Positions 26,735-40,133 of a stretch of 64,000 nucleotides of DNA are shown here, piece by piece. Each line of letters begins with the position of its first letter. The stretch's first letter is position 1. This DNA is from Verrucomicrobiota bacterium (GTDB lineage Bacteria > Verrucomicrobiota > Verrucomicrobiia > Limisphaerales > Palsa-1400), in assembly GCA_049510745.1 (NCBI GenBank), contig JBEKYR010000008.1, forward strand, positions 32,001 to 96,000, in the 5' to 3' direction. Made by a program: the position numbers and the translations under genes. The notes beneath the pieces were generated by a model. The model was not told the origin of the DNA, did no database searches, and saw only the letters and a list, made by a program, of their open reading frames with translations.

Positions 26735-26830
26735 ATTAAAGTTTTCGTTGACTCCTTTTTCCCGGGCAACCCGCGGACCCCCAACCGTAATCGCCCACTT
26801 CTTCCTTCTTCCTTCATCCTTCTCACTTCA

Positions 26831-26933
26831 TTGACAGGGGGCGCGGCAGGGGGCATTCTCCGAGCATGGCGCGAAAGCTTCGCCTGCAATATCCGGGCGC
26901 GATTTATCACCTGATGCGCCGCGGCGACCACCG
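26831..26933 (+). mobile_element. RAYT (HUH transposase) 5' fragment, copy 1, with promoter
   Basis: TTGACA-17-CATTCT-6-ATG, then MARKLRLQYPGAIYHLMRRGDHR; homology stops at 26933. Confidence 0.82.
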
Positions 26934-26974
26934 TGTGGAGATGGGATCCTGGAAATCCGTCAATCGAAGACTCT

Positions 26975-29941
26975 ATGAACACCGACAGCAGAATCGACAT
27001 GCTAATGGGTGACCCCTTTATCGTTGCCCTTGCCTCGATTTCGCTGTGGCTGGCTGCCACCGGCGCGATCACCGCCGGCGCCGCGGAGCCCCCGTGGGAG
27101 GCACGCACCTACGACGTGCTGCCCGTCAGCGCGCGCGCCGAAACCGGCGATGAGGCGTCCAGCCGGCAGATGACGCTCGGCGGCCAGTGGGATCTGGCTG
27201 AGACCCAGGCGGAATCCGGGTCCGCCCTAGGAGACTTGGACAAGCTGAGTTGGACCCGCGTCGAAATGCCGGACGCCATCCAGCACGCCCTGTTTCTGGC
27301 CGGAAAGACGGACAACCCTTGGTATGGCGATAACTACAAAAAGCTCCAGTGGATCGCCGAGCGAAACTGGTACCTGCGCCGTCGCTTCCGCATCCCCGAT
27401 GCCTGGCAAGGCCGTCACATCCGGCTGCGTTTCGACGGGCTGAACTATGCCGGTGCCGTCTGGCTGGACGGCCGATTCCTCGGCGTTCACGAGGGCATGT
27501 TCGGCGGACCGACCCTGGATGTCACAGCCCTGTTGGGGCCGGGCCGAGAGCATGAGCTCGTTGTCCGCCTGATTGCCGAAAAGGACCCGAGCCGGTCCAT
27601 GAAGTCCAAGGCGATGGAAGGCGTGCCGTTTTTGTGGGGCAACAAGTTCCGCACAATCGGTCTCTATCAGCCCATTAGGCTGGTCAGTTCCGGAGCGGCC
27701 TATATGGAAGCGCCCTGCGTGCGCACCGACGCGATCGGAGAGAGGACGGCCCGCTTGTGGGCCCAGGCCACGATCATCCATAGCGGCGCCGCCCGGTTGG
27801 AGGGCACGATCCGGGCCCAAATCGTGGACCTCACGACCGGTCGAATCATTTGGAAGGAGGATGCCAGGCAATCCGTGCCTGCGGGCACGTCCTACTGGGA
27901 GCGGTCCATCGAAATCGGCGACCCGAAGCTCTGGTGGCCCGTCGGCCTGGGCGCTCAACCGCTCTACCGCTTGGAACTGGCGCTGGCCGTCGGAAACCAG
28001 GAATTGGACCGCATCGCTTCGCGATTCGGGATCCGGACCGTGGAGCTCCTGCGCAACCCCTATCTGGCGGACAAGCCGCGGGCCAATCCCGGCAAGCCGG
28101 ACTTCATGTCGGCCACGCCGAAGATTGGCGATCCGGCCAGCGCAAAGCTCTGGAACCGGCCGGACCTCTGGTGCGGCGATCACCCTGTGGAAGACGACGC
28201 CTTGCACAACGCCGATGAGTCGTACCGCTTCCTCTTCGCGGTGAACGGCCGGCCGTTTTTCATCAAAGGGGCGAGCTGGATGACCTCGGATGATCTGTTG
28301 GTGCTCTCGCCCCAGCGCGAGGACTGGCTGGTGCGCGCCGCGCGCTTCGCGGGGTTGAACCTCTTCCGCCTCAACGGGGGCAACAACATCTTCGAGACCG
28401 AGCGGTTCTACGATCTCTGCGATGAGAACGGCATCCTGGTGTGGCAGGAATTGCAGTTCAGCTTTGATCGGGGAAGCAAGGTCCCGCTGCGAACCTGGCG
28501 CGAACAGTTGAAGCAGTCCGTGCTGCGCCTCCGACAGCATCCGTCGCTGGCGCTCTATGTGGGCGGCAACGAGTACGCCCCCTACGTCGAGGCCTTGGCG
28601 CCCTACCTGGGAATCGCTCGCGAGATCATTGCCGCTTACGACAACCGGCCCTTCCGCATGTCCTCGCCGGGCGGCGGCGACTATCACGCCTACTACACGC
28701 CGGAGGGCGATTTCGGTGACTTGTGGATCGGCGATCCCAACTGGTATGCCCGCTACTTCGACGAGTCGGTCAACTTTGTCTCGGAATGGTCCCTCATGGG
28801 CTACGGCAATATGTCCATGATGAAACGCGTGTTCCCGCGCGAGGAGCTGGCAGGCGGGCCCGTCGGCAACGATTGTGCGAAGTTCGCACAGGCCCACCCT
28901 ATCCTGCACAGCAGCTTTCCGGAAGTGGAGCGGGCGCTGCCGCTGCTGTATTGCAAGGCCTCCATCTATGGGAACCTGGCCCGGGCGGACATGCCGGACT
29001 TCGTCGAATACAGCCAGATGGCTCTGGCCGACGTGTATGAATGCGTCTTCGAACAATGGCGCGCACAGTTCCCCTACAAGGGCGGGCAAATTGTCTGGAC
29101 CTACAACAGTCACGGCCCCATTTCTTCGTGGAATATCATTGACTGGTTCGGCCAGCCGCTGATTGCGTTCTATTCCACCAAGCGCGCGGATGAACCGGTC
29201 CACGTCATGGCGGACGCCGGCTTCTTTACCTGGGGTCCCGGTGATACGTTCAAGCCCTCGGTCTTCGCCCTGAACGACGCCCCGGAGCCGCTCAAAGGGG
29301 CGCGGGTCACGGCCCGCATCCTCGACCGCCGCATGCAGCCCGTCCTCACGGAATCATGGAGGCTGACCGTGCCTGCGGGCGGTCGCCACAGCGAGGCGCG
29401 CCAACTGCAATGGCCCATTCCCGCGGATACTCCGGATGGCTGCTTCTTCTTGGAGCTGACCTTGAAGGACGCGGCAGGACACCAACTTTCACGCCGAGCC
29501 TACTGGCTGAGGGTCGTCCAGTCGCTGGCCAACGCCCAAGCGCGGATGCGCTGGCAGGCCGGGGCCGTGAAGGAACCGCTGGCCACGCAGGGGCCTTGGC
29601 TGAAGCCCCAGTTGGAAGGCGTCCCCACAACCCTCTCGGCGGAAGTGACGTCTCTCGAAGCGTTCGCAACGGAGGCCCGTTTGACCTTGGTCGTGAAGAA
29701 CGCGGGGACGGCACCGGCTTATCCGGTGCGGATTGCGCTGCTTCCTGACTCCTGTTCCGCCGTGTGGAGCGACAACTACTTCTGGCTCGCGCCGGACGAG
29801 ACCAGGACGGTTACAGGCATTGTGCGGCTGGACATGCGCGGCTTGGATCCCCTCAGCCCTGCACTGGTCGCCAAGGTTTCGGACCTAAAAGTCGAGGTGT
29901 CCGCGTGGAACTCGAAACGCTTCGTCCTGACGCCGAAATGA
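26975..29941 (+). CDS. glycoside hydrolase family 2 (beta-mannosidase-like), secreted
   Basis: LRFDGLNY, WLDGRFLGVHEGMF, LWWPVGLGAQPLY, VNGRPFFIKG, CDENGILVWQE, VGGNE, FVSEW. Confidence 0.88.
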   Translation: MNTDSRIDMLMGDPFIVALASISLWLAATGAITAGAAEPPWEARTYDVLPVSARAETGDEASSRQMTLGGQWDLAETQAESGSALGDLDKLSWTRVEMPDAIQHALFLAGKTDNPWYGDNYKKLQWIAERNWYLRRRFRIPDAWQGRHIRLRFDGLNYAGAVWLDGRFLGVHEGMFGGPTLDVTALLGPGREHELVVRLIAEKDPSRSMKSKAMEGVPFLWGNKFRTIGLYQPIRLVSSGAAYMEAPCVRTDAIGERTARLWAQATIIHSGAARLEGTIRAQIVDLTTGRIIWKEDARQSVPAGTSYWERSIEIGDPKLWWPVGLGAQPLYRLELALAVGNQELDRIASRFGIRTVELLRNPYLADKPRANPGKPDFMSATPKIGDPASAKLWNRPDLWCGDHPVEDDALHNADESYRFLFAVNGRPFFIKGASWMTSDDLLVLSPQREDWLVRAARFAGLNLFRLNGGNNIFETERFYDLCDENGILVWQELQFSFDRGSKVPLRTWREQLKQSVLRLRQHPSLALYVGGNEYAPYVEALAPYLGIAREIIAAYDNRPFRMSSPGGGDYHAYYTPEGDFGDLWIGDPNWYARYFDESVNFVSEWSLMGYGNMSMMKRVFPREELAGGPVGNDCAKFAQAHPILHSSFPEVERALPLLYCKASIYGNLARADMPDFVEYSQMALADVYECVFEQWRAQFPYKGGQIVWTYNSHGPISSWNIIDWFGQPLIAFYSTKRADEPVHVMADAGFFTWGPGDTFKPSVFALNDAPEPLKGARVTARILDRRMQPVLTESWRLTVPAGGRHSEARQLQWPIPADTPDGCFFLELTLKDAAGHQLSRRAYWLRVVQSLANAQARMRWQAGAVKEPLATQGPWLKPQLEGVPTTLSAEVTSLEAFATEARLTLVVKNAGTAPAYPVRIALLPDSCSAVWSDNYFWLAPDETRTVTGIVRLDMRGLDPLSPALVAKVSDLKVEVSAWNSKRFVLTPK

Positions 29942-30143
29942 ACACGAGCCCGAAAGCTTTGCCTGCGATATCCGGGCGCGGTTTATCACCCGATGAGCCG
30001 CGGCGACCACCGGGAGCCGGTCTTCCTGGAGGAGTCCGACCGGCCAATGTTTCTCTCCACCCTGGGCGAGGCCTGCGCCAAGACCGACTGGCAGGTCCAC
30101 GCCTGCTGCCTGATGAACAACCACTTTCATCTGGTCGTCGAAA
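29940..30143 (+). mobile_element. RAYT 5' fragment, copy 2 (longest, includes HUH motif, start codon lost)
   Basis: RKLCLRYPGAVYHPMSRGDHREPVF...FLSTLGEACAKTDWQVHACCLMNNHFHLVVE; begins at the GH2 stop codon. Confidence 0.85.
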
Positions 30144-30410
30144 AGTGGTGGAAAGTGGCGTCACATCCAAACATTCTGCATTTCAAGTTCTTTTTGACGC
30201 CGCTTGAGCGCCGCGGATAACGCCGGGCTTTTTCGCACTCGCGCCGTCTCCCCGAAATCGCTAAACACTTGCCCCAACTGCGCACCCTTGGCCATTGGTC
30301 CATCCCCTTTCCTTCCCCACTCACTGACTCACTAATTCTTCCACTCACTGATTCGCTTGCAGCTCCGCACCCCTGGCCCTCGGTCCATCCACCTCCTTCG
30401 TTCCCCATCT

Positions 30411-30468
30411 GTGAAAATCTGTGTCCATCTGTGGCCCGCACCCTTGGCCAATTTTTCTCTTTTTTTTC
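30411..30468. repeat. 58-bp direct repeat, module B copy 1 (identical to 36949-37006)
   Basis: gtgaaaatctgtgtccatctgtggcccgcacccttggccaatttttctcttttttttc. Confidence 0.92.
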
Positions 30469-30517
30469 ACCTGAAAATACCAAAAGCGGCCAAAAGCATT
30501 GTTTGACCTCTTTGAAC

Positions 30518-32227
30518 TCATTCTTTTGTCCCATGAAGCGCGGCTTCCACTTTTTCCTCAATGGGCAGGGCGGCGGGATGTCCGGCCACGACGATCTTGC
30601 CTTGAGCGTCAATAAGGTAGGTCGTCGGCACGCCCGATACGCGGAAAGCCTTCGCGGGCGCGCTGCCCCAGCCGCCGTCGCCGGCCCAGACGTTGAAGGT
30701 GTTGGTCCAGCCCCGCTTGTTCACGTGGTGGCGCACGATGTCCAGCGTGTCGTCAATGCTCAATGGAACAACCGCGACCTTGTCCCCCCAGTCCGAATGA
30801 GCCTGCCGCAGTTTTTGCAGATCCGCCATCGGACCTTGGCAAGGACCGCACCAGGTGGCCCAAAAGTCCAGCACGACCACTTTGCCGCGCAGATCGGAGA
30901 GCTTCATTTTCTTTTCGCCGTCCAGCGTGGTGAATTCGATTTCCGGCACGGCGGCTCCGGGAGGCAAGGTATCATGTTCGGCGATATAATTCTCAACCTC
31001 CATCGCCGCGGCAGCCTTCTCGTCAAGGACACCGGCGGGAACTTGATTCCAACTCACATTTCCCACTGCCTTCCAGTCGTCTGTGAACCTCATCACCTGT
31101 TTGACGGCCAGAATGTAATCGCCCGACAATGAAGTTCCCGTCCTGGACTTTGCGCCCGTTTTCACCGCCAGCTTCAATTTAAACTGTTCACCTATCAGTC
31201 CTTCCACCGAGCCGGAAGCGCCTGTCAACTGAAGCCGGCCAATTGAGGCTTCCTGGATCTGGATTTGCGCGTCCTTAAAATCAATTCCCGCCGCCTCGCT
31301 TTGATTGAGCATGGCCCGGGCTATTTCGGTTTGTTCCTGCGTCCGTCGGTTGATCTCCTCGTCCAATTCCTTCCGGGAAGGTCCTTTCTCGCCGCGCTTC
31401 TGCATCATGGCCCAATACAGGTCGCTGTTCGCCAGAGCTTCCTTGGCGTAAATGTTCGTGTCCCGCTCTCGAATAAATCGAACCAGCGTCTGGCCCAGCC
31501 GCAACAGCGCCGGGTCATCCTTATCGGTCAGGCGGCTAAGACCTGGACTGGCGGCCTTTTCCAGGATCGCCATTTCGCGCGCTGTTTTTTCGTCGCCCAC
31601 GTTGGACGGAAACGATACCCACTGAATGCCGCCCGCGCAACGCCAGCCCTTCGGAAATTTATTCAGCCGGCGGAGCACGATCTTGTATTCACCGCCGGCC
31701 TGATTGTTCGTGCCCGCGTCGGGATTCAAAATGATTTCCACCTTTTGCGCATGGGGCAGGCTTTCGCCCTCGGCTTGGAGATTGGGATAATGGGCGGTTC
31801 CAAGAAATCTCGGATTGACCACACGCTCATGCAAATCGCCCTTCGAAAAATCCAGATGCAGCGAATCCGCCCGGGCCAGGAACGCCTTGGCCGCCGCCTC
31901 CGTCTCCGCGCGTTGACTGTCTGCCCCGTTGGCAAAACCCTTCAGATTCTCGGCGATCTCGGGCAAATTGGTGGAGGCAATCGCCTCCCAATCCTCCGCA
32001 GAGGCCGTGATTTCTCTGGCAAACCGCGCCGCGTCACGACTCCGGAGCAGCGCGACAACAGAACGGCTCACCGCCCCAAACTCGTCCTCGGCGGGCTTGA
32101 CTGCCTTCGGCGCCAAAGGAGTCGAACTCCCCGCCGGTGTTTGCGGCGCAAACAGACCAAGAGAAACGACAGCCAGACCAAGCGAAAGCCGAAGCTGAAG
32201 GCCGTGGCGAAACTTTTGCGGATTCAT
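30518..32227 (-). CDS. secreted protein with C-terminal TlpA-like thioredoxin domain
   Basis: signal peptide; LSDLRGKVVVLDFWATWCGPC, VPTTYLIDAQGKI; about 400 aa unrecognised N-terminal region. Confidence 0.88.
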   Translation of the reverse strand: MNPQKFRHGLQLRLSLGLAVVSLGLFAPQTPAGSSTPLAPKAVKPAEDEFGAVSRSVVALLRSRDAARFAREITASAEDWEAIASTNLPEIAENLKGFANGADSQRAETEAAAKAFLARADSLHLDFSKGDLHERVVNPRFLGTAHYPNLQAEGESLPHAQKVEIILNPDAGTNNQAGGEYKIVLRRLNKFPKGWRCAGGIQWVSFPSNVGDEKTAREMAILEKAASPGLSRLTDKDDPALLRLGQTLVRFIRERDTNIYAKEALANSDLYWAMMQKRGEKGPSRKELDEEINRRTQEQTEIARAMLNQSEAAGIDFKDAQIQIQEASIGRLQLTGASGSVEGLIGEQFKLKLAVKTGAKSRTGTSLSGDYILAVKQVMRFTDDWKAVGNVSWNQVPAGVLDEKAAAAMEVENYIAEHDTLPPGAAVPEIEFTTLDGEKKMKLSDLRGKVVVLDFWATWCGPCQGPMADLQKLRQAHSDWGDKVAVVPLSIDDTLDIVRHHVNKRGWTNTFNVWAGDGGWGSAPAKAFRVSGVPTTYLIDAQGKIVVAGHPAALPIEEKVEAALHGTKE

Positions 32228-32313
32228 AGAATCCCTCCTATAGCAGACAGCATCCTGACGCAAGGGAAATCCCGGCGTCGAACCCTTTGACCTCATTTAT
32301 CTCGTTCGAACAG

Positions 32314-32347
32314 AAAAAATGAAATTTCGTTGACGAGGCCGCCTTCC
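32314..32347. repeat. 34-bp direct repeat, module D copy 1 (identical to 37980-38013)
   Basis: aaaaaatgaaatttcgttgacgaggccgccttcc. Confidence 0.92.
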
Positions 32348-32391
32348 TTGCCCCACTCACTGATTCACTGACTCACTCATTCTTAAATTCC

Positions 32392-32566
32392 CTTTTTTTT
32401 CCTTCCGTAGGTTTTTCGCCTTGACGCCCCTGTGTTGTAATCGGGCCAGGATGACTACAAGCCATCTCATACAGGGGCATCGAGGGAGCGGCCGGAGAAC
32501 TGAGCCGGCCAACAGGCGCAAGCCGGGCCTGTTTGCCGTAGCTCGGTCCCGCCGGGCGAAGGCGGA
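32392..32566 (+). repeat. about 175-bp leader, module C copy 1 (paralogue at 36997-37180)
   Basis: ttccttccgtaggtttttcgccttgacgcccctgtg.tgtaatcgggccaggatgac.acaagccatctcat...cccgccgggcgaaggc shared by both copies. Confidence 0.9.
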
Positions 32567-34064
32567 TGCCTGTGAAAACCCACAATTTCAACTCCGCCAA
32601 CAGCTTCTCGGATACCAGAAAGATTGGGTTGACGACCTCTCCCGCTTCAAATTCGGCCTCATGGCCCGCCAAACCGGCAAGGACTTCTCCGCCGCCTACG
32701 AAGGCGTCTTTGACTGCCTCCTCCACGACGCCAAGGGCCAAAAAACAGACTGGCTTATCGCCGCCCCCTCCGAGCGCCAATCCCTCGAATCCCTCGAAAA
32801 ATGGAAAACTTGGGCGGCCACCTTCAAATCCGCCATCGCCAACTACGAAGAGGAGCGATCCGGCGCCGGAGAAAGCCTCTTATTATCCGCCGCCATCACC
32901 TTTCCCCACGGCAGCCGCGTCATCGCCGTCCCCGGAAAACCCGAAACCGTCCGCGGCTTCAGCGCCAACGTCTTACTCACCGAGTTCGCCTTCTTCGAGG
33001 ACCCCGACGCCACCTGGCGCGCCATCGCCCCCAGCATCACCAACCCGCTCCGTGGCGGCGAAAAAAAAGTCAGAATCATCACCACTCCCAACGGCATCGG
33101 CAACAGAGCTTACGACCTCTGGATTAAAAACTATAAGCCAATCAGTGAAGGGAGAATCAGTGAATCAGAGAATGCCCGGCAACTGACTTCCCAATTCACT
33201 GATTCACTGATTCAAACTTCAAAATTGTCTCCGATCTGGTCCTGCCACCTCATTGACATAGAAACCGCCAAAGCTCACGGCCTTCCCGTCGATCTGGACC
33301 AACTCCGCGCCGCCCTCGACGACCCGGACGGCTGGCCCCAGGAATTTGAATGCCAGTTCATCGACGTTCAAACCGTCCTCCTCACCTACGAAACCATCGC
33401 CAGTTGCGAAAGCACGGAGGCTACCAACACCGTCCCGCCCGATTTCTGGTTCGCCAACCGCCACGCCGCCCCACCCCTCGTCATGGGCATCGATTTTGGC
33501 CGCCGCCGCGACCTCACCGTCGCCTGGACCAACCAGCGGCTTGGCGACGTTCAGCAAACCGTCGAAGTCCTCGAACTCGATAATATGTCCACTCCCCTCC
33601 AGGTCGAAATCCTCCGCACCAGAATCAGAAACGTCCACCGAGTCTGTCTCGACTACACCGGCGCAGGCGTCGGCCTTGGCGATTATCTCGCCGGGGAATT
33701 CGGCGAGTGGAACCCCGCCCGGCACAAATTCGGCAAAATCGAGCTTTGCGTCTTCACCCAGCCATTCAAAGTCGAAATCTTTTCAAAACTCCGCATGGCC
33801 TTTGACCAGCGCCTGCTCCGCATCCCCATCTGCCGCGCCATCCGCGAAGACCTCCACACCGTCAACCGCGTCACCAGCCCTAGCGGCCATATCACCTACC
33901 GCGCTACGCACAGTCCGGACGGCCACGCCGACAGATGCACCGCCCTCGCCCTCGCCTGGCGCGCACATCCGGCAACCACCGTCATCGCAGCGTGCGCCGG
34001 CATCCGCCGCCTGCCACCCCACCCCGGAAACCTCTGCCTCGGAAAAGCCGACTACATCCTCTGA
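32451..34064 (+). CDS. Mu gp28-like phage terminase large subunit (orphan)
   Basis: LLGYQKDW, Walker A ARQTGKD, PSERQS, RGFSANVLLTEFAF, ITTPNG, QEFECQF, nuclease MGIDFGRRRD, LDYTGAG, HADRCTALALA; start uncertain. Confidence 0.88.
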   Translation: MTTSHLIQGHRGSGRRTEPANRRKPGLFAVARSRRAKADACENPQFQLRQQLLGYQKDWVDDLSRFKFGLMARQTGKDFSAAYEGVFDCLLHDAKGQKTDWLIAAPSERQSLESLEKWKTWAATFKSAIANYEEERSGAGESLLLSAAITFPHGSRVIAVPGKPETVRGFSANVLLTEFAFFEDPDATWRAIAPSITNPLRGGEKKVRIITTPNGIGNRAYDLWIKNYKPISEGRISESENARQLTSQFTDSLIQTSKLSPIWSCHLIDIETAKAHGLPVDLDQLRAALDDPDGWPQEFECQFIDVQTVLLTYETIASCESTEATNTVPPDFWFANRHAAPPLVMGIDFGRRRDLTVAWTNQRLGDVQQTVEVLELDNMSTPLQVEILRTRIRNVHRVCLDYTGAGVGLGDYLAGEFGEWNPARHKFGKIELCVFTQPFKVEIFSKLRMAFDQRLLRIPICRAIREDLHTVNRVTSPSGHITYRATHSPDGHADRCTALALAWRAHPATTVIAACAGIRRLPPHPGNLCLGKADYIL

Positions 34065-34068
34065 ATGA

Positions 34069-34179
34069 AAACCGCAGTCTGGTTCAGCAGAGTGTGCGTC
34101 CGTGTTTGTCCGTGCCCATCCTTTCCGTCCTTTTCGTCCTTTTCGTCCCATTTGTCCCATCGCCGTGACCGCCTGGTAC
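34069..34179. repeat. module E copy 1 (paralogue 36766-36877) with 9-10 nt GTCC tandem units
   Basis: aaaccgc...tcagcagagtgt...gtttgtccgtg...ttcgtccc...atcgccgtg.ccg.ctggtac present in both copies. Confidence 0.85.
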
Positions 34180-34283
34180 CCCAGCCCATCGCTCCAAAAA
34201 ACACGCCCACTTCATCCTTCATCCTTCATCCTTTCCCCCATTCATTGCCCCCCAAAATCCCAAGAACCGTCGCAGTACATCCC

Positions 34284-34333
34284 GGGGAGCGCGCGCGCCC
34301 TCGCGTGCAGCGGTCGGCGCCCCCGCCGACCGC
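34284..34333 (+). repeat. REP-like palindrome
   Basis: ggggagcgcgcgcgccctcgc plus perfect 10-bp stem gcggtcggcg/cgccgaccgc; related copy on the minus strand at 55674-55716. Confidence 0.65.
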
Positions 34334-34401
34334 TTCTTCGCTCATAGGCCATCGCTCGGCGGTAAGACCGCGTACGAGAGAGTTGGGCGCCCCATTCTGG
34401 G

Positions 34402-34516
34402 TTGACAGGGGGCGCCGCAGGGGGCATTGTCCGAACATGGCGCGAAAGCTTCGCCTGCAATATCCGGGCGCGATTTATCACCCGATGAGCCGCGGCGACC
34501 ACCAGGAGCCGGTCTT
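34402..34516 (+). mobile_element. RAYT 5' fragment, copy 3, with promoter
   Basis: TTGACA-17-CATTGT-6-ATG 34437, MARKLRLQYPGAIYHPMSRGDHQEPVF. Confidence 0.85.
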
Positions 34517-34596
34517 TTCCGGCGGTTGCGGCGGGAAACGATGATGCCGCTCAAATCAAGTTCAATACTTGTTGCTGGAGAACCCTAAGAAACATC

Positions 34597-35979
34597 ATGC
34601 AACCGGTTCGCAAAACAAAAACGCATTTTGGGATTCCTTACGTTTGGACTCCTGCTGATAAGTCCGCTCAAGCGGCGCTTGAAAAGCAGCGAGGATCAGC
34701 TAGCACGGCTTGGGATGATTATTTGGGGGATCACCAGCAGAATGACTATTTTGGCGACTTGCTAGCCGCTGGAGTTATTAATGGGAAACAGAAGTGGTCT
34801 CAGCGTCCAGAAGAACCTGAACAACGCTTGGCTTTGCTTCAAGCCGACGAACGGCTGTTCCGAAATTGCCAGTTGCGCCTTGATTCGTCTTTGCAGGACG
34901 GACTCTTGCGACTGATTCCAAACGGAATATCCAAACGCGGTGGTTTTCTCTACTACACAGATCGTTTGGATCGGTGCATAGTCTACGACTATCGTATCCC
35001 GCATCATTCACAAAGAGCAGCAAAGGTCATTTCTCTTGTGGACATTCCAGAGCCGGAGTTTCTTTACGATATTGCGACCGCGATTCCCAATGCAGACGAT
35101 GACGTGCGATCTGCGTTGAAAAATGCGCTTGTATATGGGCACAAAATCGTCGTGCATCGTAACACTTTTGTACACGTAGATCGTCGGCGAGACGAGGGAA
35201 CTGCCGGGCCATTTATCGACACACTTATTTTGAACGAGATGCTTCACAAATATGTTTATGAGCATTTTCAAGATTTTGCTGTCGAACGACAGTTTGAAAA
35301 GGCGATGGAGGTCGGAACGGGCAGCGGGATGCTCATTGCCGCGTGCTTCCAAAACCTTCCAGGCATTCGAAGAGTCGTTGCTTTGGACACGGTAATGGAA
35401 TCAGTTCATTGTGCCTACAGGAATGTTCTTGCCAACCATCCTGCATACGGAAAGCTCAGACCAAGCGAGTATTTTGTCTGCGGAAGATTTGATACTGACA
35501 CTTGGCACAAGTACGATGTGGTGTTGTGCAATCCGCCGTATATTCCTCTGAAACCTGGAGCAGAATTAAGCCCGAATGCTACAAGTGCTGTTGGAGGCAC
35601 AGATTTGATGAGTAGCGTTATTTCTGATGCCCCGCTACTCTTGAGTGACCGCGGTTTTCTGTTCATGATTTTTAGCTCGCTCGCGGATTCTGAATTCAAC
35701 CAAGCAATCAACAAAGCCGGCGTGGAATACGCGAACCTTGGACCGCCAACTGGATTCGAGGTGAGATTCGAGGTCGAGGAGGTTTTTGGGGATGGAGACT
35801 GGTTAAACTTTTTAGTTAACGAACGTGGCCTTGTGCATAAGAAGGGGCAATTTCTTCATACCCTTCGATGTGTAGCCATTCATAAGAGCAAAGAACAAGA
35901 ATTCGCCGACGACACCGCCTTATTGGAACGTATGAAACAACTGAACCAAACCTTCGCGGCGATAACGGATGCTAATTGA
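34597..35979 (+). CDS. AT-rich amino-methyltransferase (NPPY class) with unknown N-terminal domain
   Basis: MEVGTGSG SAM motif I, VVLCNPPY motif IV; visibly lower GC than the flanks. Confidence 0.85.
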   Translation: MQPVRKTKTHFGIPYVWTPADKSAQAALEKQRGSASTAWDDYLGDHQQNDYFGDLLAAGVINGKQKWSQRPEEPEQRLALLQADERLFRNCQLRLDSSLQDGLLRLIPNGISKRGGFLYYTDRLDRCIVYDYRIPHHSQRAAKVISLVDIPEPEFLYDIATAIPNADDDVRSALKNALVYGHKIVVHRNTFVHVDRRRDEGTAGPFIDTLILNEMLHKYVYEHFQDFAVERQFEKAMEVGTGSGMLIAACFQNLPGIRRVVALDTVMESVHCAYRNVLANHPAYGKLRPSEYFVCGRFDTDTWHKYDVVLCNPPYIPLKPGAELSPNATSAVGGTDLMSSVISDAPLLLSDRGFLFMIFSSLADSEFNQAINKAGVEYANLGPPTGFEVRFEVEEVFGDGDWLNFLVNERGLVHKKGQFLHTLRCVAIHKSKEQEFADDTALLERMKQLNQTFAAITDAN

Positions 35980-36505
35980 TATGAAAGATACAGTAATGTT
36001 GTGTTTTCGAGATCTTATCACAGCGCCTGGAGATTCTATCGCGCAACATAAGAGATTGATCGACGATTACGGGTATTGTTGGTGGGGATGGTGGATGAAG
36101 CCCATTGAGGACGTTCCTAATGAGCTGCTTCTCAAAATCGTTCGCACAAATTCAAACCATGGCAGTGATATATTCTTATACGATTGCGGCCAATATGGTT
36201 TATACCGTGCTACGCTCACCGATGTGGCAATTTCACCAACGAATGTGGGCATGTCTTCCCCCGGAATTGAGCAGACGCCGGAATATTATGTTCACGTCAA
36301 ATGTCGCGCTTGGTTCAAGCTTGAGGGAATAGATCTAGTGCCAGAAAGCGATGCGAAGCTACACCTCATAAAGTATGTAGATTTTCCAAGCTGGCGGCTT
36401 GAGGAGACTCACGACCATTTCAAGGGAAAGAATATCAGCAACTTTCAAGAACTCGACCAAATGGCGGTAACGCTTTGGCATATTGAACTTCCTGAAAATT
36501 TGTGA
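35969..36505 (+). CDS. AT-rich hypothetical protein with FRDL...WWGWW motif
   Basis: coupled to the methyltransferase; LCFRDL, QHKRLIDDYGYCWWGWWMKP, PEYY...AWFKL; start may be 35981. Confidence 0.8.
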   Translation: MLIDMKDTVMLCFRDLITAPGDSIAQHKRLIDDYGYCWWGWWMKPIEDVPNELLLKIVRTNSNHGSDIFLYDCGQYGLYRATLTDVAISPTNVGMSSPGIEQTPEYYVHVKCRAWFKLEGIDLVPESDAKLHLIKYVDFPSWRLEETHDHFKGKNISNFQELDQMAVTLWHIELPENL

Positions 36506-36582
36506 TTGCGTCTCCCGCGGCCGTGATTGAGTGAATGAAGGGGTCATGAAGGGGTCAGTTCCTAGCAATGCCGCATTGTGAG

Positions 36583-36745
36583 TTGACAGGGAGGAGCGGG
36601 AGGGTGCATTTCCGAGCATGGCGCGAAAGCTTCGCCTGCAATATCCGGGCGCGGTTTATCACCTGATGCGCCGCGGCGGCCACCGGGAGCCGCTCTTCCT
36701 GGAGAAGTCCGACCGGCCAATGTTTCCGTCCACCCTGGGCGAGGC
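36583..36745 (+). mobile_element. RAYT 5' fragment, copy 4, with promoter
   Basis: TTGACA-18-CATTTC, ATG 36618, MARKLRLQYPGAVYHLMRRGGHREPLFLEKSDRPMFPSTLGEA. Confidence 0.85.
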
Positions 36746-36765
36746 TCCTGCCGAGCCGCTTTGGC

Positions 36766-37180
36766 AAACCGCGCTGTGCCTCAGCAGAGTGTCCGTCCAT
36801 GTTTGTCCGTGTTTGTCCATGCCCGTCCATTTCGTCCTATTCGTCCTATTCGTCCCATCGCCGTGGCCGTCTGGTACGAGCTTATATTTTTTTTGTGATC
36901 TTTGTGATTTTTTGCGGCAATTCATCTTTGGTTGCGGCTTGCCGCGCCGTGAAAATCTGTGTCCATCTGTGGCCCGCACCCTTGGCCAATTTTTCTCTTT
37001 TTTTTCCTTCCGTAGGTTTTTCGCCTTGACGCCCCTGTGCTGTAATCGGGCCAGGATGACAACAAGCCATCTCATGCAGGGCCATCGAGGGAGCGCCGAG
37101 CGAACCGGGCCGGCCAACAGCCGCAAGCCGGGCCGCTCCGCCGGCCTGTCCGCCGTCGCTCGCTCCCGCCGGGCGAAGGC
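36766..37180. repeat. second copies of modules E, B and C in succession
   Basis: E 36766-36877, B 36949-37006, C 36997-37180 match the copies at 34069, 30411 and 32392. Confidence 0.88.
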
Positions 37181-37224
37181 CGGCAAATCCCGTCAACCCT
37201 CACGCACCAACGAAAGCACATAAT

Positions 37225-37971
37225 ATGTCACGCACTGGAAAAATAGCCCGCCTCCCAACCGCCATCAGGGAACAACTCAACGCCAGAATCGAACAAGGCG
37301 AGCCGTCAATTCACCTCGTCGATTGGCTTAACTCCCTGCCCTCCGTCAATGCCGTCCTCGACACATACTTCGCCGGCCGCCCCGTCACCGACGGCAACCT
37401 CTCTGACTGGAAACACGGCGGCTACAAGGACTGGAAGGCCGAACAAGCCGCCGCCGCCATGTTCGAGAAACTGTGCCAGACTCCTGCCGAAAAACTCACC
37501 GCTCTCCAAAGCGGCCTGATCGACCAGATGGCCACCCTCTACGCCGCCCAACTCCTCTCCGAGATGCAAAAACCAGCGCCCCACGCGGACGACGCCGCCC
37601 GCGCCAAAATTTGGCGCGAATTCCGCCAGGCCTTCGCCTCTCTGCGACGTTACCAGTTCGCCACCCTCGCCATCCAGGACCGCCTCAAGTTCCAGCCCAT
37701 CGAGACCGAAGCCACAGAATCATTCCAACTCACCGAAGACGACAAACGCCGTCGCGTTGAACATCTCCTCGGCGTCGCGGGCGGCCCCGACGCCAACAGA
37801 TTCGACGTAAAAACTCAAACCTGGTCCGGTCCAAACGCCGCTGTCATGAACCGGCAACACCGGAAACTGCTCCTGAAAGCCGCCAAAGAAGCCGGAATCG
37901 ACCTGGAAAACGAAACCCAAAACCCGGACAAATCCGGAGAAATCCGGCCAATTCCGGCCAAATCCGGCTAA
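37225..37971 (+). CDS. DUF3486 / Mu gp27-like (small-terminase-like) protein
   Basis: GKIARLPTAIREQLNARI...WLNSLP...NLSDWKHGGY N-terminal HTH-like region; family call from memory of the motif. Confidence 0.6.
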   Translation: MSRTGKIARLPTAIREQLNARIEQGEPSIHLVDWLNSLPSVNAVLDTYFAGRPVTDGNLSDWKHGGYKDWKAEQAAAAMFEKLCQTPAEKLTALQSGLIDQMATLYAAQLLSEMQKPAPHADDAARAKIWREFRQAFASLRRYQFATLAIQDRLKFQPIETEATESFQLTEDDKRRRVEHLLGVAGGPDANRFDVKTQTWSGPNAAVMNRQHRKLLLKAAKEAGIDLENETQNPDKSGEIRPIPAKSG

Positions 37972-37980
37972 ATCGGGCCA
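37921..37980. repeat. six 10-nt tandem repeats (AATCCGGCYA-like)
   Basis: aacccggaca aatccggaga aatccggcca attccggcca aatccggcta aatcgggcca. Confidence 0.88.
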
Positions 37981-38023
37981 AAAAATGAAATTTCGTTGAC
38001 GAGGCCGCCTTCCCGGCTAAAAT
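37980..38023 (+). promoter_or_regulatory. gap promoter containing module D copy 2
   Basis: TTGACG (37996)-16-TAAAAT (38018) upstream of gap. Confidence 0.65.
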
Positions 38024-39761: not shown

Positions 39762-40133
39762 ATGCAGTTCCAAATCATCTTCAATCCGACCAGCGCGGCC
39801 GAGTTGGCGAAAATGCCGCGGGAATTGCAGCTTCACATCTTGGGTGAATTCCGCGGCCTGCCGCACGAGGTCTTGAAAAGCGACCCGCATCACTTCGGCC
39901 GCCTGGAGCGCGCGGGCAAGACCCTCCATCGGTTTCGCCTGGGCGACTACCGCGTCTATTTCGAGCGGCACGAACTGGGGGTGGTGGTCCACCGCATCCT
40001 CAGCCGCAACACGCTCAAGGATTTCCTCTTTCGTTCCAGCCTGCCCACCGGCGAGGACGAAGCCTTGCAGGAAAACCCGAAGTTTTGGGAAATGATCGAA
40101 TCCGCCCGCCTGACCCCGCCCAGGAAAGACTGA
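39762..40133 (+). CDS. RelE/ParE-fold protein
   Basis: FQIIFNPTSAAEL...LHRFRLGDYRVYF...VVHRILSR. Confidence 0.7.
   Translation: MQFQIIFNPTSAAELAKMPRELQLHILGEFRGLPHEVLKSDPHHFGRLERAGKTLHRFRLGDYRVYFERHELGVVVHRILSRNTLKDFLFRSSLPTGEDEALQENPKFWEMIESARLTPPRKD

What the first reader, a model, noticed from the sequence alone, without database searches (positions are those of the whole stretch)
26735..38013. Integrase-free gene-cassette island built from shuffled repeat modules between ispH and gap
Seen: the order is F-R1-[GH2]-R2-A-B-[TlpA]-D-A-C-[terminase]-E-F-REP-R3-[MTase, WWGWW]-R4-E-B-C-[DUF3486-like]-10mer-D-gap. R is a RAYT 5' fragment, A is the CACTGA(T/C)T octamer run (30315, 32351), B is 58 bp identical, C is the ~175 bp leader, D is 34 bp identical, E is ~110 bp and F is the CTTCATC heptamer run (26793, 34205). 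All repeats are in the same orientation, and every cargo gene sits between repeat modules. The cargo genes are unrelated and differ in base composition. No integrase or intact transposase is in the window. Inference: an integron-like capture locus driven in trans, by an HUH/RAYT enzyme or by recombination between dispersed repeats.
Basis: partly seen in the sequence, partly recalled or inferred. Interest (0 to 1): 0.85.

Follow-up and report, generated by a model that had tools for sequence, protein, structure and literature searches.

The report
Orphan terminase modules stacked before gap
An 11-kb insertion in front of the gap gene is a pile-up of repeats found all over this peat bacterium's genome, not an integron, and two of its genes belong to an undescribed scattered family of phage DNA-packaging (terminase) genes that likely steer a host-kept, phage-derived particle system towards their own DNA.

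Summary
The repeats are real, and the 11.3 kb is a true insertion: a same-genus genome has ispH and gap 90 bp apart. It is not integron-like. The genome has no integron integrase, A, B, C, E, F, R and REP recur genome-wide with ragged ends, D is half host gap promoter, and the cargo occurs elsewhere without modules. The 'terminase' and 'DUF3486-like' genes are not unrelated cargo: they are Mu-type TerL and TerS. Their leader C carries the palindrome that heads the genome's two transposase-less Mu-like late operons, a candidate gene transfer agent (GTA) that this scan already noted in other Verrucomicrobia. New here: five intact orphan TerS genes each end in their own 10-bp tandem array (17 of 23 in relatives; controls 3/180, 7/400), each array type has 7-22 copies genome-wide, and one orphan keeps the resident TerS's last 17 residues unchanged despite 80% DNA identity. 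Best reading: integrase-free TerS/pac-like modules that likely bias packaging towards themselves, stacked with mini-RAYTs and foreign genes by homology- and microhomology-driven recombination. Particle production, DNA binding and packaging bias are untested.

The parts
26735..26752 (+). Left junction at the ispH stop, with a degenerate 10-bp copy of the target (TTTCGTTGAC)
   Evidence: G001 empty site joins the ispH stop directly to this target; positions
26792..26829 (+). F1, heptamer run, genome-wide family
26831..27016 (+). R1, internally deleted mini-RAYT: promoter-like start, RAYT 5' piece, RAYT 3' piece, right terminus GGTGACCCC
26975..29941 (+). GH2 glycoside hydrolase (cargo; start uncertain, overlaps the R1 right end)
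   Evidence: no DNA match in 30 family genomes at E<=1e-30
29948..30143 (+). R2, RAYT 5' relic
   Evidence: Y1_Tnp hit
30306..30468 (+). A1 and B1, pieces of the left arm of the TerS-element family
   Evidence: B-linker-A-C is one contiguous arm at C8:207801 and C11:134875
30518..32227 (-). TlpA-like redoxin-domain protein (cargo, lineage gene found at other loci in relatives)
32314..32347 (+). D1, 34-bp duplicate of element end plus gap promoter 5' half; ends in 9-bp microhomology CCGCCTTCC shared with the element arm
32348..32563 (+). A2 and C1 leader, with the palindrome CCTTCCGTAGG (32401-32411) shared with the Mu-like late operons
32451..34064 (+). Orphan Mu-type large terminase (TerL), open frame, motifs matching the resident copy; start uncertain
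   Evidence: (67% to resident C10 TerL)
34069..34395 (+). E1, F2 and REP-like palindrome (37 hits genome-wide)
34402..34556 (+). R3, mini-RAYT truncated on the right
34597..36505 (+). HemK/MTS-like methyltransferase (34597-35979) and PUA-like gene (35969-36505); low-GC cargo, candidate defence pair
   Evidence: inside a type I RM operon in G008
36537..36745 (+). R4, mini-RAYT left terminus, promoter-like start and 5' piece
36766..37180 (+). E2, B2 and C2 leader with the second palindrome (37006-37016)
37225..37971 (+). Orphan small terminase-like gene (Mu gp27/DUF3486 type), 248 aa, parent type of about 20 mini-elements
37920..37990 (+). Tandem 10-bp array (AAATCCGGNN) ending in an A-tract; candidate pac-like site
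37980..38023 (+). D2 and native gap promoter (-35 TTGACG at 37996, -10 TAAAAT ending 38023)

Best explanation
The island is an 11.3-kb insertion at the gap promoter built from genome-wide repeats, and its core is an orphan terminase module (shared late-operon leader, TerL, TerS-like gene, 10-bp array) that likely redirects a host-kept Mu-derived packaging system to its own DNA and was likely stacked with mini-RAYTs and foreign genes by homology- and microhomology-driven recombination, with no dedicated integrase. Shown: the insertion; the dispersed families; a three-locus Mu-like gene set lacking MuA; one leader shared by its two late operons and by two orphan TerS leaders; one array type per intact TerS. 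Inferred: (1) the Mu-like set makes DNA-filled particles (GTA-like); (2) the palindrome binds a late activator, so orphan modules are co-induced; (3) each orphan TerS binds its own array through its N-terminal domain and docks on TerL through its C-terminal helix, so DNA near the arrays is over-packaged; (4) over-represented fragments enter sibling cells (comEC and dprA are present) and integrate at short shared repeats or microhomologies, often just upstream of promoters; (5) once a locus holds repeats it attracts more insertions and local duplications. The 5.6-kb block from A2 to the 10-mers would have entered as one piece through a 9-bp and an 11-bp microhomology, duplicating 34 bp (D).
For: Empty site in G001. 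C palindrome 26 times in G000, 0 for the reversed control, including the heads of both late operons. Late operons hit portal, protease, adaptor and TerL families; early locus has repressor, MuB-like piece and Gam but no MuA between them. One close portal copy in each of 11 relatives of 4 genera; capsid candidate 68-92% identical; TerL tree groups genus g3 (support 97) and g10 (90), and puts the three orphan G000 TerLs with the resident G000/G002 copies (89, not starred). Both operons share a genome-specific leader in 8 of 8 genomes with both leaders in hand (7 with the CC..GG palindrome), and orphan TerS leaders in G002 and G004 carry their own genome's variant. TerS identity: Atlas cluster with PF11985 on 51% of members, score 0.95; hhalign to resident TerS genes, probability 51, E 1.6e-4; 9 of 10 homologues hit phrog_426 terminase small subunit, best E 5.8e-8; position next to TerL at C22, C70 and in relatives. 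Arrays: 5 of 5 intact G000 TerS, each a different unit; 17 of 23 in relatives against 3/180 and 7/400 control genes; 22, 16, 7, 8 and 15 arrays per type genome-wide, reversed-genome controls 0, 0, 0, 0, 4. Orphan TerS at C8:114422 ends in the same 17 residues as resident TerS at 80% DNA identity. TerL dN/dS 0.17 against resident. Ragged ends; island R copies 91-95% alike against 78-89% to copies elsewhere; microhomologies at D.
Against: No particle, binding or packaging evidence. The window TerS itself has no significant Pfam, PHROG, NCBIfam or Foldseek hit. Only 2 of the 4 intact G000 orphan TerS loci with a visible leader carry the palindrome (C22 and C70 do not; C29 is at a contig end), and it was seen in 2 of 4 relatives' orphan loci examined from genomes with a known motif. 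Orphan TerS genes are abundant in genus g7 and present in g4, where no portal was found (0/6 and 0/3 genomes). Arrays lie at TerS 3' ends and the resident operon has none, so they may not be pac sites. TerS dN/dS is 0.45-0.84. Kin genomes and tandem TerS pairs are not independent counts. Operon flanks are not conserved between genera. The order of events in the island is reconstructed from one genome and one empty site.
Confidence: 0.5

Rival explanations
1. Same repeat-driven accretion, but the orphan TerS/TerL copies serve the host: as specificity subunits that tune what the GTA-like particle carries, or as dominant-negative decoys that jam terminases of incoming Mu-like phages.
For: Open frames and purifying selection on TerL; conserved docking peptide; orphan TerS in genomes where no portal was found; terminase-targeting defence exists (10.1101/2025.02.27.640495, search listing and abstract start).
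Against: About 20 TerS-less mini-elements and dozens of orphan arrays have multiplied, which fits selfish spread better; no PADLOC hit.
Confidence: 0.2
2. Integron-like or RAYT-driven cassette capture: an HUH transposase acting in trans inserts cargo between R copies.
For: GH2 and MTase-PUA are each bracketed by R copies; intact RAYTs are in the genome; DNA downstream of R pieces is GC-poor in 9 of 15 cases against 11.6% of background windows; right-end/left-end pairs flank genes at C2 and C81.
Against: No integron integrase; R1 ends with its own terminus before GH2; most R copies are single; cargo lacks modules in relatives; TlpA, TerL and TerS are not bounded by R; the joints seen in 8 runs have short sides and match repeats elsewhere, with none showing an empty site.
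Confidence: 0.13
3. Neutral debris: remnants of repeated Mu-like prophage infections and simple repeats, with no current activity.
For: Broken TerS (C54) and TerL (C3) pieces exist; raised dN/dS in TerS.
Against: No other phage gene lies beside the orphan copies; orphan TerLs group with the resident vertical lineage; silent-only change in the docking peptide; leader tracks the host motif.
Confidence: 0.14
4. Mis-assembly of a metagenome bin across repeats.
For: No contig spans the whole island.
Against: Identical repeats are at most 58 bp; depth is even (23-32 in run X1 outside repeats); the same junction-bridging contigs occur in X1, X2 and X3; most copies differ by 5-18%.
Confidence: 0.03

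Closest known systems
Pac-type PICIs/SaPIs and PLE (satellites that supply or alter TerS to redirect packaging)
   Same: Own small terminase next to a candidate cognate site, relying on a helper's capsid genes (SaPI TerS role from my own knowledge; PLE paper PMC11417361 seen as listing and abstract start).
   Different: No integrase, att site, replication genes or defined ends; many dispersed copies; the helper is a domesticated host gene set; induction would come from a copied host leader.
Gene transfer agents (RcGTA and relatives)
   Same: Vertically kept, multi-locus head-tail, terminase and lysis genes without replication or transposase; competence genes present.
   Different: Mu-derived and in Verrucomicrobiota. 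[quoted passage not shown]
Lateral and generalized transduction from chromosomal pac/pseudo-pac sites
   Same: In situ packaging from chromosome-embedded sites recognised by TerS (PMC8575950 passages).
   Different: There the pac site belongs to a prophage; here site and TerS would be a free-standing module.
RAYT/REP(IN) systems and their non-autonomous derivatives
   Same: R is an internally deleted RAYT with termini; a REP-like palindrome is present.
   Different: R explains only 4 modules; it is not shown to carry cargo.
Integrons and CALINs
   Same: Genes in a row separated by repeats, no integrase in the array.
   Different: No IntI in the genome, no common attC-like site, one gene inverted, spacers of six unrelated kinds.
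Homology-facilitated illegitimate recombination (HFIR)
   Same: Short anchors plus microhomology junctions in competent bacteria (PMC6382021 passages).
   Different: Inferred from junction sequence only; a 34-bp target duplication is not a described HFIR hallmark to my knowledge.

Membership tests
Integron/CALIN | Integron integrase in the genome | tested here: not met
   TIGR02249: 0 of 9 matches over cut-off; genome 94% complete
Integron/CALIN | One attC-type site carried by each cassette | tested here: not met
   Spacers are six unrelated repeat families; cargo homologues elsewhere lack them. No attC covariance-model scan was run.
RAYT-derived mini-element (module R) | RAYT 5' and 3' pieces between termini, intact RAYT elsewhere | tested here: met
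RAYT-derived mini-element (module R) | Mobilisation of cargo between two copies | tested here: inconclusive
   Bracketing seen, no circle or empty-site joint in 8 runs kept as contigs
Mu gp27/DUF3486 small terminase | Sequence or profile homology | tested here: met
   Weak but concordant at family level; window protein alone has no significant hit
Mu gp27/DUF3486 small terminase | Binds TerL and a packaging site | not testable with these tools
   Needs biochemistry; sequence hint only
PICI/phage satellite | Integrase, att sites and own replication module | tested here: not met
   None beside the orphan copies; ragged ends
PICI/phage satellite | Redirects helper packaging to own DNA | not testable with these tools
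   Inferred from anatomy
Gene transfer agent (resident Mu-like set) | Vertical, single-copy virion genes without transposase or replication genes | tested here: met
   one weak Mu-transpos_C match elsewhere (E 7e-4, C15) is not linked
Gene transfer agent (resident Mu-like set) | Particles that carry host DNA and transfer markers | not testable with these tools
   No culture or virome data
Active Mu-like prophage | MuA transposase and contiguous genome with Mu ends | tested here: not met
   Three separate loci; no MuA between the Ner-position gene and the MuB-like piece
PUA-Cal-HAD / Metis defence systems (cargo) | PUA sensor fused or linked to phosphoesterase/HAD effectors | tested here: not met
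   Only the PUA-like domain matches (NF053862 positions 2-162 of 486); partner is a methyltransferase

The most novel reading that the evidence does not exclude
A new class of selfish element: integrase-free 'packaging drivers' made of a copied GTA late promoter, a small terminase with its own DNA specificity and a cognate 10-bp array. They parasitise a domesticated Mu-derived GTA, breed non-autonomous array-only copies, and turn their insertion sites into hotspots of gene capture and rearrangement across a Verrucomicrobiota family.
Probability: 0.33. Interest if true: 0.9.

Novelty: new variant of a known kind. Interest (0 to 1): 0.68.

Why it matters
GTAs are held to package DNA without sequence preference because their TerS lacks a DNA-binding domain (PMC11841831, passages). 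Modules that put a specific TerS and its site back would be cheaters of a shared transfer system, a class I did not find in the searched library. The prediction is directly testable from peat virome or transductomics reads: coverage steps starting at the arrays. It also offers five natural TerS/array pairs in one genome for studying how small terminases read DNA. The family is large: 2,835 representatives at 50% identity with E<=1e-10.

Tried and rejected
Complex prediction of window TerL with TerS residues 120-225: no verdict. Foldseek of the TerS model: no match at E<=0.001 in viral or PDB libraries; weak rows include a DUF3486 protein and phage small terminases. The wide structural search did not run. 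No RNA holder listed. No Mor-family activator found in G000, so the binder of the palindrome is unknown. Transposon model for the TerS mini-elements rejected: no fixed ends among 26 loci. Joints in read data have sides of 19-43 letters and several match copies elsewhere in the genome (C66, C8:207801), so they were not counted as circles or deletions. 'Same orientation' is weak evidence for an array mechanism: modules favour the locally C-rich strand genome-wide (F 18/21, E 10/11, B 8/9, A 19/27, C 17/25; the R pattern matched nothing). The generic promoter scan finds only the gap promoter among the modules (6 sites, 4.0 expected), so promoter calls for R and C rest on position and conservation. 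The TerL tree is the quick tree of 30 rows; the careful search did not finish. Scan look-ups for orphan TerS/decamer elements returned nothing.
Full report
1. Observation. All modules are at the stated places and in direct orientation. The island is the densest module cluster of the 5.6-Mb genome: 10 hits of 6 classes in 12 kb, at most 5 in other non-overlapping windows. It is an insertion: in same-genus genome G001, ispH and gap are 90 bp apart, and the ispH stop runs straight into the sequence that forms the right half of D. G001 was the only one of 60 relatives with the two genes adjacent, so synteny decays fast in this family. Contigs from public peat runs cover flanks and cargo at even depth and bridge module-to-cargo junctions in X1, X2 and X3; none spans the whole island, and X1 may be the source sample. 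One homologue is labelled Verrucomicrobiae and Atlas clusters are mostly Verrucomicrobiota.

2. The modules are genome-wide families. BLAST of each module against the genome gives 12 hits for R, 22 for C, 27 for the 10-mer end, 37 for the REP-like palindrome and 10-17 for F. R is an internally deleted RAYT: copies at C17, C20 and C41 show left terminus, 5' piece, 3' piece and right terminus, and R1 closes with its own right terminus before GH2. Intact RAYTs exist on other contigs. B, A and C form one contiguous left arm at other loci. D is the element's A-tract end fused to the native gap promoter. Across 26 C loci the repeat boundaries are ragged. Island R copies are 91-95% alike but 78-89% alike to copies elsewhere, which points to local duplication or conversion.

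3. Not an integron. No integron integrase passes the cut-off. MTase-PUA is 75% identical at DNA level to a pair inside a type I RM operon of G008, with no modules there (RM labels read from the translated sequences, not from a family scan). TlpA homologues in 7 relatives also lack the modules. GH2 had no DNA match in 30 family genomes. In favour of some RAYT link: GH2 and MTase-PUA are bracketed by R, and DNA after R pieces is below 55% GC in 9 of 15 cases against 11.6% of background windows.

4. What C leads to. The palindrome in C occurs 26 times in G000, with 0 for the reversed control. Two copies head phage late operons among housekeeping genes: C10 (small membrane genes, lipase, gp26-like, TerS-like, TerL) and C23 (portal, protease, capsid candidate, adaptor, tail candidates). 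A third locus on C3 has a repressor-like gene, a MuB-like piece and Gam with no MuA between them. One close portal copy was found in each of 11 relatives from 4 genera, and the portal family in 18 of 30 family genomes against 1 of 30 from other families. Gene order is conserved, while flanks differ between genera and showed no Mu transposase in the ORFs scanned. The quick TerL tree groups genera g3 and g10. In 8 of 8 genomes with both leaders in hand the two operons share a genome-specific leader; 7 carry the palindrome and G001 a different shared sequence. This is a candidate Mu-derived GTA. I reached this reading before the look-up (note); the scan had noted the same kind of gene set in other Verrucomicrobia.

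5. The orphan terminase modules. G000 has three orphan intact TerLs (window, C22, C70) and five intact orphan TerS-like genes. At C22 and C70, TerL is followed directly by TerS and an array; in the window the pair is split by 3.1 kb and each has its own C leader. TerS assignment rests on the Atlas, hhalign to resident TerS genes (probability 51), phrog_426 hits in 9 of 10 homologues and gene position; the window protein alone has no significant family or fold hit. The model has a confident N-terminal helical domain (pLDDT above 90 for residues 11-70) and long central helices. Each intact G000 TerS ends in a different 10-bp array; 17 of 23 TerS hits in 19 relatives' loci have one within 150-200 bp, against 3/180 and 7/400 control genes (tandem pairs share arrays and kin are not independent). 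Each array type has 7-22 copies in G000. Sixteen aligned TerS-less mini-elements of 288-444 bp are 69-93% alike. The orphan at C8:114422 ends in the same 17 residues as the resident TerS at 80% DNA identity, the region that binds TerL in characterised small terminases (PMC11841831, passages; PMC6854486, Discussion). Orphan leaders in G002 and G004 carry their own genome's palindrome. Homologues occur in 26 of 30 family genomes, up to 32 matches each, and 3 of 30 others.

6. Insertion pattern. For 5 mini-elements compared with G001 and G002, the gene on the 3' side is conserved; 4 of 5 abut its promoter region directly and one has about 670 bp between. In 4 cases the relatives' upstream neighbours lie on other G000 contigs; in one (C5) G000 has a few extra kilobases with the element, as at gap. 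In the island, D1 ends in a 9-bp microhomology shared with the element arm and begins with the 11-bp element end, so the block from A2 to the array can be read as one insertion that duplicated 34 bp. comEC and dprA are present. HFIR is the closest described route (PMC6382021, passages).

7. Results against this reading. Only 2 of 4 intact G000 orphan TerS loci with a visible leader carry the palindrome, and 2 of 4 examined in relatives with a known motif. Orphan TerS genes abound in genus g7 and occur in g4, where no portal was found (several of these genomes are 64-89% complete). The resident operon has no array. TerS dN/dS is 0.45-0.84 and orphan TerL pairs 0.40-0.42. Nothing here shows particles, binding or biased packaging.

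8. Literature. Ten library searches listed no paper whose title or abstract start describes a Verrucomicrobiota GTA or orphan TerS/array elements; I did not read most listed papers, and the library omits most subscription journals. Read: PMC6854486 (outline, Discussion), PMC11841831, PMC8575950, PMC12378983 and PMC6382021 (passages). SaPI TerS biology and Mu gene names are recalled.

9. Verdict. Observation largely right; integron-like reading not supported; recombination between dispersed repeats supported. The valuable result is the TerS/array module family tied to a domesticated Mu-like packaging set. Confidence in the full mechanism 0.5; probability of the selfish packaging-driver class 0.33; interest 0.68.

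Noticed in passing
window 32541-34061 and 37225-37968; G000 C22, C70, C29; loci L059-L097: Extreme strand skew at four-fold sites: orphan TerL copies have C 0.70-0.74 and G 0.08-0.10 (0 of 453 control ORFs below G 0.15); 31 of 39 conserved G sites are C in the window copy. Resident operon genes of some relatives are skewed the other way (G 0.71-0.76 in G009, G020). Possibly unopposed strand bias in rarely expressed genes; unexplained.
   Followed up: partly
window 34597-36505; L136:8081-14228: HemK-like methyltransferase plus stand-alone PUA-like gene; in G008 the pair sits inside what reads as a type I RM operon. Candidate undescribed defence pair.
   Followed up: partly
L060:7000-7500 (G002:C132): G002's resident terminase operon has no TerS between gp26-like and TerL, yet the genome has 32 matches to the orphan TerS family; orphans may have replaced the resident subunit.
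   Followed up: no
L060, L063, L069, L073: Restriction-modification and Fic genes repeatedly sit right beside the resident late operons in relatives.
   Followed up: no
L032 region, G020:C22:161350-165324: In G020 a TerS-like gene and a second, distant portal lie 3.6-7 kb upstream of gap: an independent insertion near the same gene.
   Followed up: no
G005:C1 (single-contig genome), L083-L085: Five distant TerL matches, three examined and each with a TerS-like neighbour, while no portal was found by two searches.
   Followed up: partly
G000 genome-wide; window 39965-39992: Hundreds of intergenic 7-, 8-, 9- and 10-bp tandem runs in a few families, biased to the C-rich strand; origin of the 7-9-bp families not addressed.
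   Followed up: partly
G000:C8:900-1500 and C6:130900-131400: Intact RAYT genes preceded by stacked partial copies of their own left end and promoter, resembling the stacked R copies.
   Followed up: no
P0030: A 343-aa protein made of four tandem TerS N-terminal domains.
   Followed up: no
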